The position numbers were made by a program, and so were the translations under genes. Shown here piece by piece: positions 27,342-51,645 of a stretch of 64,000 bases of DNA; positions within the stretch are counted from its first letter, which is position 1, and every line of letters starts with the position of its first letter. The notes under the pieces were generated by a model. That model had not been told where the DNA came from, ran no database searches, and worked only from the letters and a program-made list of their open reading frames with translations. The stretch covers positions 60,361-124,360 of the forward strand of contig CAWEYJ010000023.1 in assembly GCA_963813165.1 (NCBI GenBank). Direction: 5' to 3'. Source of the DNA: an uncultured Pseudomonadota bacterium. GTDB taxonomy: Bacteria > Pseudomonadota > Alphaproteobacteria > Rhizobiales > Xanthobacteraceae.

Positions 27342-27433
27342 CCGTCATGGCCGGGCTTGTCCCGGCCATCCACGTCTTGTTCTCTGCTTGCTCAGGAAAG
27401 ACGTGGATGCCCGGCACAAGGCCGGGCATGACG
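27342..27433. repeat. Family A CGTC-tagged REP doublet
   Basis: CCGTCATGGCCGGGCTTGTCCCGGCCATCCACGTC ... GACGTGGATGCCCGGCACAAGGCCGGGCATGACG. Confidence 0.92.
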
Positions 27434-43282: not shown

Positions 43283-43367
43283 CGTCATGACCGGGCTCGT
43301 CCCGGCCATCCACGTCTTGGCGCCGGCAAGAAAGACGTGGATGCCCGCGACAAGCGCGGGCATGACG
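43283..43367. repeat. Family A CGTC-tagged REP doublet
   Basis: CGTCATGACCGGGCTCGTCCCGGCCATCCACGTCTT ... AAGACGTGGATGCCCGCGACAAGCGCGGGCATGACG. Confidence 0.92.
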
Positions 43368-43396
43368 AAAACACTTGCTCGGGAAGCTTTCGTAAC

Positions 43397-44329
43397 ATGT
43401 CCCTCCGCTTGATCTTCATGGGTACGCCGGACTTCGCGGTGCCGACGCTGATGGAACTGGTGGCCCATGGCCATCAGATCGCGGCGGTCTATACCCGCGC
43501 GGCAAAGCCGGCCGGGCGCGGCATGAAGCTGCAACTGAGCCCGGTGGAGCAGGAGGCGCGGCGGCTCGGCATTCCGGTATTCACGCCCGCCACTCTGAAG
43601 ACGCCAGAGGCGCTACAGGAACTTGAAGCGCATCACGCGGATGCGGCGGTCGTCGTGGCCTATGGTATGATCCTGCCGCAGGCCATTCTCGACACCCCAA
43701 CGCTCGGCTGCTTCAATCTGCATGGGTCGCTGTTGCCGCGCTGGCGCGGTGCAGCGCCCATCAACCGCGCCATCATGGCAGGCGATGCCGAGACCGGCGT
43801 GATGGTGATGAAGATGGATGCCGGCCTCGACACCGGCGACGTGGCGATGGCCGAGCGCGTGGCGATTACAGATGCGATGACCGCGGCCGATCTGCACGAT
43901 GCACTGGCACCGCTCGGGGCCGATCTGATGGTGCGGGCGATGGGTGCGTTGGAACGCGGCAAGCTGCAGCTTACCAAGCAGAGCGATGCAGGCGTCACCT
44001 ACGCCGCCAAAATCGACAAGGCCGAGGCGCGGATCGACTGGGACAGGCCTGGGCGCGCCGTGCTGCGTCATATTCATGGCCTGTCGCCATTTCCGGGCGC
44101 GTGGTGTGAGATGCCGATCGACGGCGAGTCCGTGCGGGTCAAGATCCTGCGCTGTGAGATGACCGATGGTTCGGGGCCGGCCGGCGATCTGCTGGATGAT
44201 CGTCTGGCGGTCGCCTGCAGGCAAGGCGCGATCCGGATCCTCGAACTGCAGCGCGCCGGCAAGGCGCCGATGAAGGCGGAGGATTTTCTGCGCGGAACGC
44301 CGCTGAAACCTCCGATGCGGCTGCGCTGA
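43397..44329 (+). CDS. fmt: Methionyl-tRNA formyltransferase
   Basis: [22 protein letters not shown] and MDAGLDTG. Confidence 0.97.
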
Positions 44330-45066
44330 TGCCCCGCTACAAACTGACCATCGAATATGACGGTGCGCCGTTTTGCGGCTGGCAGCTCCAGGATAATGGC
44401 GCCTCCGTGCAGGGCGCGCTGGAAACCGCGATCAAGGCGATCTGCGGCGAGCAGGTTCGCGTCCATGGCGCCGGCCGCACCGATGCCGGCGTGCACGCGC
44501 TGGCGCAGGTCGCCCATTGCGATATTGCCAGGCATTTTGTGCCCGGACGATTTCGCGACGGCTTGAATGCGCATCTGCGGCCGCATCCGATCGGCGTGCT
44601 GTCGGCGGAGATCGTGCCCGATACCTTCGAGGCGCGGTTCTCCGCGAAGAAGCGGCATTATCTTTATCGCATCAGCAATCGCCGCGCCAATCTGGCGCTC
44701 GAGATCGGTCACGTCTGGCGGCTGCCGAGACCGCTCGATACCGACGCGATGCATGAGGCCGCGCAGCGGCTGGTCGGCAAGCACGATTTCACCACGTTTC
44801 GCGACACCGAATGCCAGGCGAAGTCACCGGAGAAAACCCTCGACCAGCTCGACGTCGTCAGGGACGGCGACGCCGTCCATATCGTGACCTCGGCGCGCTC
44901 GTTTCTGCACAGCCAGGTCCGCTCGATGGTCGGCTCGCTGGTCTGGGTCGGCGAGGGCCGCTGGAGCGCCGACGATCTTGCGGCGGCACTGGCCGCGCGC
45001 AACCGCGCCGCCTGCGGTCCGGTCGCGCCGCCGGATGGGCTGTATCTGGTGCGGGTGGATTATTGA
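44329..45066 (+). CDS. truA: tRNA pseudouridine(38-40) synthase
   Basis: [11 protein letters not shown] and [12 protein letters not shown]. Confidence 0.97.
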
Positions 45067-45073
45067 ATGTGAG

Positions 45074-45447
45074 CCGTCGTGGCCGGGCTTGTCCCGGCCA
45101 TCCACGTCCTTCATCTTTGGCCTATGTCAGGCGGCTATGTGTATATTCTGGCGAGCGCTCCCAACGGCATTTTGTACGTGGGAGTTACAAGCGACCTTAT
45201 TCGACGAGTCTACGAACACCGCAACGCACTCGTTCCAGGATTTACCAAGAGATATTCCATTAAACGCCTGGTTTACTTCGAATACCACGAAGAAATTCAA
45301 GCTGCGATCCAACGCGAACACAACATCAAGCATTGGTCGCGAAAATGGAAAGTGAGATTGATATTGGCCGGCAATCCCGAATGGAATGATCTATACGCTT
45401 CGATTATCTGAGAACGTGGATGGCCGGGACAAGCCCGGCCATGACGG
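45074..45447 (+). mobile_element. Candidate REP-flanked GIY-YIG element
   Basis: 34-bp inverted termini (33/34 identical) enclose only the nuclease gene; the termini match free family A doublets. Confidence 0.65.
45124..45411 (+). CDS. GIY-YIG nuclease family protein (95 aa)
   Basis: GYVYIL...LYVGVTSDLIRRVYEH...AIQREHNIKHWSRKWK; about 47% GC by hand count. Confidence 0.93.
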   Translation: MSGGYVYILASAPNGILYVGVTSDLIRRVYEHRNALVPGFTKRYSIKRLVYFEYHEEIQAAIQREHNIKHWSRKWKVRLILAGNPEWNDLYASII

Positions 45448-45464
45448 TGAGAAGAGTTGCTAGC

Positions 45465-46619
45465 TCAGCTGAAATAACGATCCAGCACACCGCGATAGAT
45501 TTTGGTCAGCTTTTCCAGATCGGAAACCGGCGCGCGTTCGTCGATCGCGTGCATGGTCTGGCCGACCAGCCCGAATTCGATCACCGGACAATAGCTGGCG
45601 ATAAAGCGCGCGTCCGAGGTGCCGCCCGAGGTGCTCAATTCCGGTTTGCGGCCGGTGACCTGCTCGATCGCCGCGACCGCCAGATCGGTGAAGGCGCCCG
45701 GCTTGGTGACAAACACATTGGCGTTGGAGGGCTCCCATACGATCCGCGCGCGAATCCGGTTGCCGGCGGCCTTCGTCATGCGCTGCTCGACCAGAGCGCG
45801 CAGCGTTTCCTGGGTGTGATGATCATTGAAGCGGATGTTGAATTTGGCGCGCGCCTGCCCCGGGATCACATTGCCGGCCTTGTTGCCGACATCGACCGAG
45901 GTGAATTCGAGGTTCGAGGCCTGGAACTGCGCGCTGCCGTGATCGAGCGGCTCGTTGCTGAGCGCCACGATCAGGCTGGCGATATCCGGCACCGGATTGG
46001 CCGCGCGATGCGGATAGGCGACGTGGCCCTGGATGCCATCGACGTAAAGCGTCCCCGACAGCGAGCCGCGGCGGCCGATCTTGATGCAATCGCCGAGTTC
46101 CTCGACATTGCTGGGCTCGCCGAGCACGCAATGGTCGAACTTCTCGCCGCGCGCCGCCACCCATTGCAGCAGTTTGATCGTGCCGTTGACGGCGATGTCT
46201 TCCTCGTCGCCGGTAATCAGGAACGAGATCGAGCCTTTCGGCTTGCCGCCATGGTCAGCGAGATATTCCAGCACCGCCGCGACGCTGCAGGCGATCCCGC
46301 CCTTCATGTCCACCGCGCCGCGCCCGTACAGAAAGCCGTCCTTGACGTCGCCCGAGAACGCGCCATGGCTCCATGCGGCCTCGTCGCCGGCCGGCACCAC
46401 GTCGGTATGTCCGGCAAAGGTGATATGCGGCGCCGTGTTGCCGATGCGGGCATAGAGGTTGTCGATATCGGCGGCGTCGGGTTCGGTGAAGGTGACGCGG
46501 TGCACCTCGAAGCCGGCACCCCTGAGGAGATTCTCCAGCACGGCGAGCGCGCCGGCATCCGCCGGGGTCACCGATGGGCAGCGGACGAGGTCACGGGCGA
46601 TGGAAAGGGCGTCGGTCAT
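45465..46619 (-). CDS. dapE: Succinyl-diaminopimelate desuccinylase
   Basis: [32 protein letters not shown] and HAIDE. Confidence 0.97.
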
Positions 46620-46633
46620 CGCTTTGCCAGGCC

Positions 46634-47479
46634 TCAATCCCGCAGCAGTTCATTGATGCTGGTCTTGGCACGGGTGCGCTCGTCGACGCGCTTCATGATG
46701 ACCGCGCAGGCGGTGGAGGGACCCGGCTGACCGTTCTTCAGCGGCCGGCCCGGCAGCGCGCCCGGCACCACCACGGAATATTCCGGCACCTCGCCGATGA
46801 AGGTTTCGCCGCTGTCGCGGTCGATGATCTTGGTGGAGGCGCCAAGGAACACCCCCATCGCCAGCACCGCGCCCTTGCGCACGATCACGCCTTCGGCGAC
46901 CTCCGAGCGCGCGCCGATGAAGCAGTCGTCCTCGACGATGACGGGCTCGGCCTGCAGCGGCTCCAGCACGCCGCCGATGCCGACGCCGCCGGAAATATGC
47001 ACGCGCTTGCCGATCTGGGCGCAGGAGCCGACCGTCGACCAGGTATCGATCATGGTGCTTTCATCGACATAGGCGCCGAGATTGACGAAGGACGGCATCA
47101 AGACGACGTTCTTGGCGATGAAGGCCGAGCGGCGGACGATGGCGCCCGGCACAGCGCGAAAGCCGGCGTCGCGAAACCGGTTCTCGCCCCAGCCGTCGAA
47201 CTTGGACGGCACCTTGTCCCACCACGACGCTTTGCCGGGGCCGCCGGAAATCGCGCTCATGTCGTTAAGGCGAAACGACAGCAACACCGCCTTCTTCAGC
47301 CACTGATTGACTTTCCATTTGCCGCCGGCTTCACGCTCGGCAACGCGCGCCTCGCCCTTGTCGAGCAGCTCCAGCGCGTGATCGACCGCCTCGCGGACTT
47401 CGCCCTTGGTCGCGGTGGAAATGCCGTCGCGGGCATCGAACGCGGCGTTGACTGACAATTCGAGGGAAGCCAGAGACAT
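46634..47479 (-). CDS. dapD: Tetrahydrodipicolinate N-succinyltransferase
   Basis: [22 protein letters not shown] and GGVLEPLQA. Confidence 0.97.
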
Positions 47480-51520: not shown

Positions 51521-51645
51521 CGTCATGGCCGGGCATAGCCGTCGAAGGACGGCGTCGCTTCCGCTCGCCTATGCCCGGCTATCCACGTCTTCTGCGTCAT
51601 CAAGGCCGTAAGACGTGGATGCCCGGGACAGGCCCGGGCACGACG
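51521..51645. repeat. Family A REP doublet with a branched left arm
   Basis: CGTCATGGCCGGGCATAG[insert]CTATGCCCGGCTATCCACGTCTT ... AAGACGTGGATGCCCGGGACAGGCCCGGGCACGACG. Confidence 0.9.

What the first reader, a model, noticed from the sequence alone, without database searches (positions are those of the whole stretch)
45074..45447. GIY-YIG nuclease gene enclosed by REP inverted termini: candidate mobiliser of CGTC-tagged repeats
Seen in the sequence: a 95-aa GIY-YIG gene (45124-45411, about 47% GC by hand count against GC-rich neighbours) is the only content between two 34-bp inverted repeats (45074-45107 and 45414-45447, 33/34 identical). Each repeat is a CGTC tag, a 9-bp hairpin and CCACGT. 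The reverse complement of the right terminus matches 34/34 the left arm of the gene-less doublet at 27342, and related doublets occur at 43283 and 51521. GTGAG occurs on both sides (45069-73 and 45447-51) and might be a 5-bp duplication. Established: REP/REPIN families with GTAG tags are mobilised by REP-flanked HUH transposases (RAYT/TnpA-REP). Inference: this is a parallel autonomous/non-autonomous system in which a GIY-YIG nuclease recognises or nicks the hairpins. I know of no characterised mobiliser for this repeat class; novelty needs a literature check.
Basis: partly seen in the sequence, partly recalled or inferred. Interest (0 to 1): 0.88.

Follow-up and report, generated by a model that had tools for sequence, protein, structure and literature searches.

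The report
Ssn nuclease gene between hairpin repeats
A small DNA-cutting enzyme gene sits between two mirror-image copies of a hairpin repeat scattered through the genome; this enzyme-plus-repeat partnership was published in 2025 (the Ssn family), so this is a clear new example of a known system, and whether the enzyme also spreads the repeats is still open.

Summary
A 95-aa single-domain GIY-YIG gene (45124-45411, 46.5% GC) is the only content between two inverted CGTC-tagged hairpin repeats, between truA and dapE.

It is not new. It fits the Ssn nuclease / SRM hairpin-repeat system of Chenal et al. 2025 (PMC11893778). In that system, small GIY-YIG proteins flanked by their own hairpins cut single-stranded DNA just upstream of the hairpin. 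The repeats belong to the CGTC-tagged REP class of Di Nocera et al. 2013.

In 36 genomes of the same genus, about 90 homologues are nearly all bracketed by such hairpins. At least ten hairpin types track the protein clades tightly. The gene is under strong purifying selection, and its flanking arms stay almost invariant.

Evidence that it mobilises the repeats is mixed:
- For: cassettes of one clade lie at different loci, with homology ending exactly at the CGTC tags. Type B repeat numbers rise with the cognate gene.
- Against: type A repeat numbers do not. One complete genome has 148 type A repeats and no Ssn gene.

The GTGAG "duplication" is chance.

Verdict: new member of a known kind, low to moderate interest.

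The parts
45074..45110 (+). Left hairpin repeat arm (type A). The CGTC tag is at 45075-45078 and here reads CGTCGT instead of the family's CGTCAT. It has a 9-bp stem, a 5-nt loop and a CCACGT tail. The tag points outward.
45124..45411 (+). ssn-like gene: 95 aa, single GIY-YIG domain, clade A1. GC is 46.5%.
   Evidence: Pfam PF01541 E=3.4e-13. AlphaFold model with pLDDT 93. Best structural matches are GIY-YIG proteins BH0048 and Slx1. dN/dS is 0.12 against the G020 orthologue.
45411..45447 (-). Right hairpin repeat arm (type A), inverted, with its tag outward. It starts 2 nt after the stop codon. Orthologous cassettes have an extra inner repeat plus spacer here, which this genome has lost (a deletion of about 65 bp).
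27342..27433 (.). Gene-less type A doublet. Arms are 27342-27375 (+) and 27400-27433 (-), tags outward.
   Evidence: Folds at -40.1 kcal/mol, z = -9.4.
43283..43367 (.). Gene-less type A-like doublet between def and fmt. Arms are 43283-43316 (+) and 43334-43367 (-).
51521..51645 (.). Gene-less type A-like doublet. The left arm (51521-51589) carries an insertion in its loop; the right arm is 51612-51645 (-).

Best explanation
This is a chromosomal Ssn-type cassette: a single-domain GIY-YIG nuclease gene enclosed by two inverted copies of its cognate CGTC-tagged hairpin repeat.

**Shown here**
- The protein has a GIY-YIG fold with its catalytic residues intact.
- The arms fold as DNA hairpins and belong to a dispersed family of 29-37 copies in this genome.
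- A paralogue that is 71% identical, on another contig, carries the same arms.
- Across the genus, each protein clade has its own hairpin type.
- The gene is under strong purifying selection, while its arms stay almost identical between species whose synonymous sites are saturated.
- The cassette at truA-dapE is shared by four species, so it is mostly inherited vertically.

**Inferred from the published biochemistry of four homologues (Chenal et al. 2025)**
- The protein binds the hairpin when the DNA is single-stranded, for example during replication, repair, conjugation or transformation.
- It cuts that strand a few nucleotides 5' of the CGTC tag.
- It leaves double-stranded DNA and the opposite strand untouched.
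- Because the tags point outward, the recognised strand is the top strand at the left end and the bottom strand at the right end.

**Biological role in this organism**
The role is inferred only. The most likely one is modulation of recombination or restriction of incoming single-stranded DNA that carries the repeat. A possible secondary role is maintaining or spreading the repeat family.
For: **Identity of the gene and repeats**
- Pfam GIY-YIG at E=3.4e-13.
- AlphaFold model with pLDDT 93 and beta-beta-alpha-alpha-beta-alpha-alpha topology. Structural matches are to BH0048 and Slx1.
- Invariant Y7, Y18, E65 and near-invariant R28, H32 in 20 homologues.
- Hairpin folds have z-scores of -3.6 to -6.7.
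- The second copy, at C8:197666-197944, has the same arms.

**Spread and hairpin flanks of homologues**
- Homologues occur in 49 of 61 related genomes.
- Almost all of about 90 copies are flanked by inverted tagged hairpins.
- The 12 hairpin-type labels need only 14 changes on the protein tree. The minimum is 11, the shuffled mean is 59, and 0 of 200 shuffles do as well.

**Selection**
- dN/dS is 0.03-0.12 and dS is 0.9-2.7, yet the arms are nearly identical.

**Link to the published family**
- Homologues 56-58% identical sit in contigs that hold an exact copy of the published Neisseria NTS consensus. In L203 that copy lies 3 nt before the ATG; in L202 it lies about 5 kb from the gene, whose own flanks carry NTS-like hairpins.
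- The published family description matches: about 94 aa, single domain, hairpins on both sides, a directional tag upstream of the stem.

**Shared locus**
- The cassette lies at truA-dapE in G000, G020, G010 (a pseudogene there) and G036.
Against: - The published degenerate SRM search pattern does not literally match these arms, because the stem is longer.
- I could not compare the protein directly with N. meningitidis SsnA or assign it to CDD cd10448. The only Neisseria genomes I could reach, N. lactamica NS19 and N. mucosa, have no homologue.
- No biochemistry exists for this clade or this hairpin type.
- The left arm in the window reads CGTCGT rather than the family's CGTCAT, which might weaken recognition at that end.
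Confidence: 0.85

Rival explanations
1. The cassette is, or recently was, the autonomous member of a mobile family. On this view the nuclease starts movement or copying of hairpin-bounded DNA, so it mobilises both the gene-less doublets and its own cassette. That would make it the missing mobiliser of CGTC-tagged REPs, analogous to RAYT with REPINs.
For: - Sister cassettes lie at different loci, and homology starts exactly at the outer CGTC and ends exactly at the outer GACG. This holds for G036 at truA-dapE against G015 about 66 kb away from its own truA. It also holds for the own-genome C8 copy against six species that carry it at another locus, where the own genome has no cassette or repeat.
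- The published cleavage site lies a few nucleotides outside the tag, which is at the unit boundary.
- Type B repeat counts are higher in genomes with a clade B gene: median 23 against 8, Mann-Whitney p=0.0007, not corrected for phylogeny.
- The fraction of perfect-consensus type A copies tends to be higher where a clade A gene is present: 0.25 against 0.18, p=0.07.
- No RAYT/Y1 transposase is found in the genome.
- Chenal et al. raise the same hypothesis.
Against: - Type A copy number does not depend on the presence of a clade A gene: median 45 with against 55 without, p=0.58.
- The complete genome G019 has 148 type A repeats, 17 of them perfect, and no Ssn homologue even by profile search.
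- This genome has 74 type I repeats but no clade I gene.
- The cassettes are single-copy and syntenic across species, and the two own-genome copies are only 71% identical. That is not the pattern of an active element.
- There is no target-site duplication.
- GIY-YIG nucleases hydrolyse DNA and are not known to catalyse strand transfer (established knowledge).
- Relocation bounded by the tags could equally arise by recombination between dispersed identical repeats.
Confidence: 0.3
2. The gene is a homing-type selfish nuclease that parasitises existing hairpin doublets. It would cut a gene-less doublet and be copied into its spacer by repair. On this view the repeats are its targets, not its passengers.
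For: - The gene always lies between arms that elsewhere form a doublet with a spacer of 20-50 bp.
- G019 and G008 have a gene-less doublet at exactly the same flank boundaries as the gene-bearing cassette of G036.
- The gene's low GC (46.5%) suggests a foreign or selfish history.
Against: - Each genome has dozens of gene-less doublets but only one or two gene copies, so homing is at best very rare.
- In three relatives the structure is repeat-gene-repeat-spacer-repeat. Simple deletion between the two direct repeats would then give the gene-less doublet.
- Published homologues do not cut double-stranded DNA.
- The gene is under long-term purifying selection at syntenic loci.
Confidence: 0.1
3. 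The flanking repeats are incidental. REPs accumulate in intergenic regions, especially between convergent genes such as truA and dapE, and happen to surround an unrelated small gene.
For: The truA-dapE spacer is a general hotspot. Across 30 species it holds at least five different repeat families, other genes, or nothing.
Against: - Both copies in this genome carry inverted tagged hairpins, as do nearly all of about 90 copies in relatives, and the hairpin type tracks the protein clade. Zero of 200 label shuffles do as well.
- The arms abut the gene within 0-16 nt and always have their tags pointing outward.
Confidence: 0.02

Closest known systems
Ssn nucleases with NTS/SRM hairpin repeats (SsnA of Neisseria meningitidis, NMV_0044/NMB0047; CDD cd10448; Chenal et al. 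2025, PMC11893778)
   Same: - It is a single-domain GIY-YIG protein of about 95 aa.
- The gene is enclosed by inverted hairpin repeats that carry a directional xGTC(A/G)T tag upstream of the stem and a C-rich tail.
- The same repeat is dispersed in the genome, often as doublets.
- Protein and hairpin co-vary.
   Different: - The hairpin has a 9-bp GGCCGGG-type stem that the published SRM search pattern does not match.
- This is a different protein clade with no biochemistry.
- The host genus carries at least ten nuclease/hairpin pairs side by side, and this genome keeps only two genes of one type.
- Nothing is known here about natural transformation, which is the function shown in Neisseria.
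CGTC-tagged REP superfamily (Di Nocera, De Gregorio, Rocco 2013, BMC Genomics 14:522, PMC3733652)
   Same: The repeats fit the definition: a CGTC tag at one end, a palindromic stem, a CCA-type tail, extragenic location, frequent dimers, and abundance in Alphaproteobacteria including Bradyrhizobium.
   Different: [quoted passage not shown] Here, and in Chenal et al., a dedicated partner protein is evident. Chenal et al. do not cite that paper.
RAYT/REPIN (REPtron) systems: GTAG-tagged REPs with HUH-Y1 transposases (Nunvar 2010; Bertels and Rainey 2011; Ton-Hoang 2012)
   Same: - A single-copy, vertically inherited gene is flanked by inverted copies of a dispersed hairpin repeat.
- The repeats form doublets.
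- Each gene lineage has its own repeat family.
   Different: - The enzyme is a hydrolytic GIY-YIG nuclease, not an HUH tyrosine transposase.
- The tag is CGTC, not GTAG.
- No PF01797 gene is present in this genome.
UPF0213/YhbQ-type small GIY-YIG proteins (BH0048, PDB 1ZG2; EF2693, 1YWL)
   Same: These are the closest solved structures: phmmer E=2.3e-6 and Foldseek E=9e-5. They are of the same size and fold.
   Different: - They lack the conserved C-terminal NPxWxDL segment.
- They are not known to be flanked by hairpins.
- The own genome's member of that kind (C17:324761-324967) sits next to a tRNA gene with no repeats.

Membership tests
Ssn nuclease family (Chenal et al. 2025) | Single-domain GIY-YIG protein of about 94-100 aa | tested here: met
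   95 aa. PF01541 covers residues 4-76. The AlphaFold model has one compact domain with pLDDT 93. Its best structural matches are GIY-YIG proteins.
Ssn nuclease family (Chenal et al. 2025) | Catalytic GIY and YIG tyrosines and the metal-binding acidic residue are conserved | tested here: met
   Y7, Y18 and E65 are invariant, and R28 and H32 near-invariant, in an alignment of 20 homologues from ten clades.
Ssn nuclease family (Chenal et al. 2025) | Assignment to CDD cd10448, or tblastn E<1e-10 to N. meningitidis SsnA | not testable with these tools
   No CDD library is available here. N. lactamica NS19 and N. mucosa, the only Neisseria genomes I could reach, have no homologue. Indirect support: homologues 56-58% identical lie in contigs that hold an exact NTS consensus copy, adjacent to the gene in L203 and about 5 kb away in L202.
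Ssn nuclease family (Chenal et al. 2025) | Gene flanked 5' and 3' by inverted hairpin repeats with a directional tag | tested here: met
   The paralogue on C8 has the same flanks, as do about 90 homologues in relatives.
Ssn nuclease family (Chenal et al. 2025) | Flanking repeat matches the published SRM pattern HGTCWYN(0-2)YYVSBRHN(0-5)WNVSBRGN(0-2)RNCYNB | tested here: not met
   None of four type A arms matches. The tag, stem and tail layout is the same, but the stem is two base pairs longer than the pattern allows. This is a search pattern, not a biological definition.
Ssn nuclease family (Chenal et al. 2025) | The same repeat is dispersed through the genome | tested here: met
   29 copies with up to 3 mismatches and 37 with up to 4 in the own genome. 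The reversed-pattern control gives 0.
Ssn nuclease family (Chenal et al. 2025) | Site-specific cleavage of single-stranded DNA upstream of the hairpin, with no activity on double-stranded DNA or RNA | not testable with these tools
   This needs purified protein and oligonucleotide substrates.
CGTC-tagged REPs (Di Nocera et al. 2013) | CGTC tetranucleotide at one end, palindromic stem, short CCA-type tail, extragenic and repeated | tested here: met
RAYT/REPtron | HUH-Y1 (IS200/IS605-type) transposase gene flanked by GTAG-tagged REPs | tested here: not met
   PF01797 has no match in the own genome, while the control genomes do match. The tag is CGTC and the enzyme is GIY-YIG.
Autonomous insertion sequence | Near-identical multiple copies, target-site duplication, and filled versus empty sites with exact boundaries | tested here: inconclusive
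   - There are two copies, only 71% identical.
- There is no duplication.
- Empty truA-dapE sites exist in three species, but those species are too diverged to give exact boundaries.
- Relocated cassettes do end exactly at the tags.
GIY-YIG homing endonucleases (I-TevI type) | Nuclease domain linked to a separate DNA-binding domain, located in an intron or free-standing in phage DNA | tested here: not met
   The protein has a single domain of 95 aa. NCBIfam's group I intron endonuclease model scores 18 bits against a cut-off of 56. The location is a chromosomal intergenic region.

The most novel reading that the evidence does not exclude
Ssn nucleases may be the long-missing partner enzymes of the whole CGTC-tagged REP superfamily, which was described in 2013 as lacking a dedicated transposase.

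On this reading they maintain or spread their cognate hairpins as domesticated, REPtron-like units. This one genus holds at least ten co-evolving nuclease/hairpin pairs. Cassettes relocate as units cut exactly at the CGTC tags. Repeat families then decay slowly after the gene is lost.
Probability: 0.3. Interest if true: 0.65.

Novelty: new member of a known kind. Interest (0 to 1): 0.3.

Why it matters
By itself this locus adds one more Ssn cassette to a family already described across bacteria.

Its value is as material for the open question of whether Ssn nucleases spread their hairpins. The genus offers:
- many nuclease/hairpin pairs in parallel;
- syntenic cassettes, with relocated copies bounded by the tags;
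- pseudogenes;
- a natural knockout: a complete genome with 148 cognate repeats and no Ssn gene.

It also links two literatures that do not cite each other, on CGTC-tagged REPs and on Ssn/SRM. And it shows that the published SRM search pattern misses at least one abundant hairpin type.

Tried and rejected
1. **GTGAG as a target-site duplication: rejected.** The orthologous cassettes in G020, G010 and G036 have other flanks. In the window the two GTGAG copies arise next to indels.
2. **Cassette inversion between species: an artefact.** I first read this. Loci from the genome search are in contig orientation. Once strands were taken into account, all syntenic copies have the same orientation.
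3. **Direct comparison with Neisseria SsnA: failed.** A scan for the NTS consensus reached N. lactamica and N. mucosa. Neither has a homologue, by single sequence or by profile.
4. **The paper's supplementary tables** are not held.
5. **Empty-site test for the relocated G015 cassette: uninformative.** The orthologous spacer in eight relatives is filled with other repeat families and the downstream gene differs.
6. **Ssn genes near random NTS copies.** Only 2 of 120 such loci have one within 8 kb, as expected for dispersed repeats.
7. **A generic count of CGTC followed by a perfect hairpin** was only weakly enriched: 316 against 217 in the reversed genome. It is too crude to use.
8. **Conspecific metagenome contigs** carrying the identical protein show the same cassette without variation.

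Full report
**Observation.**
- An ORF at 45124-45411 (+) encodes 95 aa and lies between truA (44329-45066, +) and dapE (45465-46637, -).
- It is enclosed by inverted arms at 45074-45110 and 45411-45447, which are 37 nt and 95% complementary.
- Each arm has a CGTC tag on the outside, a 9-bp stem, a 5-nt loop and a CCACGT tail. As single-stranded DNA the arms fold at -11.8 to -14 kcal/mol, far better than shuffles.
- The gene is 46.5% GC in a 62.5% GC window.
- Related gene-less doublets lie at 27342, 43283 and 51521.

**What the protein is.**
- It matches Pfam GIY-YIG (PF01541, E=3.4e-13) and nothing else.
- An AlphaFold model built on 20 homologues has pLDDT 93 and a single compact domain. Its best structural matches are the small UPF0213 protein BH0048 and the Slx1 nuclease domain.
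- The closest solved sequence is also BH0048 (E=2.3e-6).
- The GIY and YIG tyrosines, the arginine/histidine pair and the acidic residue are conserved across the family.

**Literature.** A search for GIY-YIG together with repetitive extragenic palindromes found Chenal et al. 2025 (PMC11893778).
- They show that the 94-aa GIY-YIG protein SsnA of N. meningitidis binds a hairpin repeat (NTS, CGTCATTCCCGCGMAVGCGGGAATCYRG) only as single-stranded DNA, and cuts a few nucleotides upstream of it.
- They report that 71% of homologues have such motifs in their flanks, and 42% have them on both sides.
- Homologues from three other species cut next to their own hairpins.
- Their Discussion notes that the NTS-ssnA-NTS layout looks like an insertion sequence, and it raises the REP-transposase analogy.
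- Di Nocera et al. 2013 (PMC3733652) had earlier defined the CGTC-tagged REP superfamily, including Bradyrhizobium families. They concluded that it lacks a dedicated transposase.
- Chenal et al. do not cite that work.
- No other paper in the library links GIY-YIG enzymes with REP mobilisation.

**This genome and its relatives.**
- The genome has two copies of the gene. The second, at C8:197666-197944, is 71% identical and is enclosed by the same arms.
- It has no Y1 transposase.
- Homologues occur in 49 of 61 related genomes.
- I collected about 90 copies with their flanks. Almost every one is bracketed by inverted tagged hairpins with the tags pointing outward.
- The hairpins fall into at least ten types. 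On a protein tree the twelve type labels need only 14 changes, against a minimum of 11 and a shuffled mean of 59. Nuclease and hairpin therefore co-vary tightly.
- dN/dS between orthologues is 0.03-0.12 with saturated synonymous sites, while the flanking arms remain nearly identical. Both the gene and the arms are under constraint.
- Two homologues that are 56-58% identical, in unrelated metagenome bins, lie in contigs holding an exact copy of the published NTS consensus. In L203 that copy is 3 nt before the ATG. In L202 it is about 5 kb from the gene, whose own flanks carry NTS-like hairpins. This ties the family to the published one.
- The published degenerate SRM pattern does not literally match the type A arms, because the stem is longer.

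**The truA-dapE site.** I examined this site in 30 species of the genus.
- The same cassette, in the same orientation, is present in G020, in G010 (frameshifted) and in the distant G036.
- Those three have an additional inner repeat and spacer after the gene. The window has lost this through a deletion of about 65 bp.
- G019 and G008 have a gene-less type A doublet at the same flank boundaries as G036.
- Three species have an empty site of 2-22 bp.
- G003 has a different Ssn clade with a different hairpin type.
- Seven species have gene-less doublets of that other type.
- The rest hold other repeats or genes.
- GTGAG is not found beside the orthologous cassettes, so it is not a target duplication.

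**Does the gene spread the repeats?**

Evidence for:
- The G015 cassette, sister to that of G036, lies about 66 kb from its own truA at another locus. Homology begins exactly at the outer CGTC and ends at the outer GACG.
- The own-genome C8 copy belongs to a clade that sits at another conserved locus in six species. The own genome has neither cassette nor repeat at that locus, and homology again ends at the tags.
- Type B repeats are more numerous where a clade B gene is present: median 23 against 8, p=0.0007, uncorrected for phylogeny.
- Perfect-consensus type A copies tend to be a larger share where a clade A gene is present: 0.25 against 0.18, p=0.07.

Evidence against:
- The type A copy number is unrelated to gene presence (p=0.58).
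- The complete genome G019 has 148 type A copies and no Ssn gene, even by profile search.
- The own genome has 74 type I repeats and no clade I gene.
- Cassettes are single-copy and mostly syntenic.
- GIY-YIG enzymes hydrolyse DNA and do not join it (established knowledge).
- Recombination between dispersed identical repeats could also relocate a cassette with boundaries inside the repeats.

**Verdict.**
It is wrong about novelty, and unproven about mobilisation.
- The locus is a new member of the Ssn/SRM kind, with a hairpin type that the published pattern misses.
- Earlier notes of this scan on other genomes reached the same family assignment. I reached it independently, from the literature and from the flank survey.

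Noticed in passing
L052, L055, L056, L058, L059, L060 (truA-dapE spacers of G030, G019, G009, G036, G008, G005): In sister species (about 90-92% truA identity), doublets of two different hairpin types (A and E) occupy the same spot. They share the same right-hand flank, GCGGA(G/A)..., directly after the tag. This suggests in-place replacement of one repeat family by another, or a shared insertion point.
   Followed up: partly
G019 (complete genome, same genus): This genome has 148 type A repeats, 17 of them perfect, but no Ssn homologue by protein or profile search. It has only a weak UPF0213-like GIY-YIG at C1:117108-117317. It is a natural knockout for testing whether the repeats depend on the nuclease.
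   Followed up: partly
own genome, all contigs: There are 74 copies of a type I tagged hairpin (CGTCATTGCGAGCGAAGCGAAGCAATCCA...). That is more than the 37 copies of type A, yet the genome has no clade I ssn gene. One copy lies directly after the C8 cassette.
   Followed up: partly
window 43337-43396 and 45420-46730: The hairpin repeats create spurious coding starts. The longest fmt ORF begins inside the doublet ([11 protein letters not shown]...), whereas the real start is probably the ATG at 43397. A 436-aa ORF antisense to dapE begins in the right arm (MAGTSPAMT...).
   Followed up: no
own genome C17:324761-324967: A third, unrelated small GIY-YIG gene (78 aa, UPF0213/YhbQ-like) lies directly downstream of a tRNA gene and has no flanking hairpins.
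   Followed up: partly
L044 and L046 (truA-dapE spacers of G024 and G007): After a different repeat (GTAGGATGGGT...ACCCATC type), the last ~20 nt of truA are repeated (TATCTGGTGCGGGTGGATTAA). It looks as if an element inserted into the 3' end of truA and the gene end was duplicated.
   Followed up: no
L140 / G061 (Neisseria lactamica NS19): This genome carries exact NTS consensus copies but has no detectable Ssn homologue by protein or profile search.
   Followed up: partly
G010 (L034/L120), G012 (L116), G013 (L100), G028 (L106, L118), G031 (L112): Several ssn copies are pseudogenes (frameshifts or in-frame stops) yet are still flanked by intact hairpins. They are useful for dating repeat decay after gene loss.
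   Followed up: no
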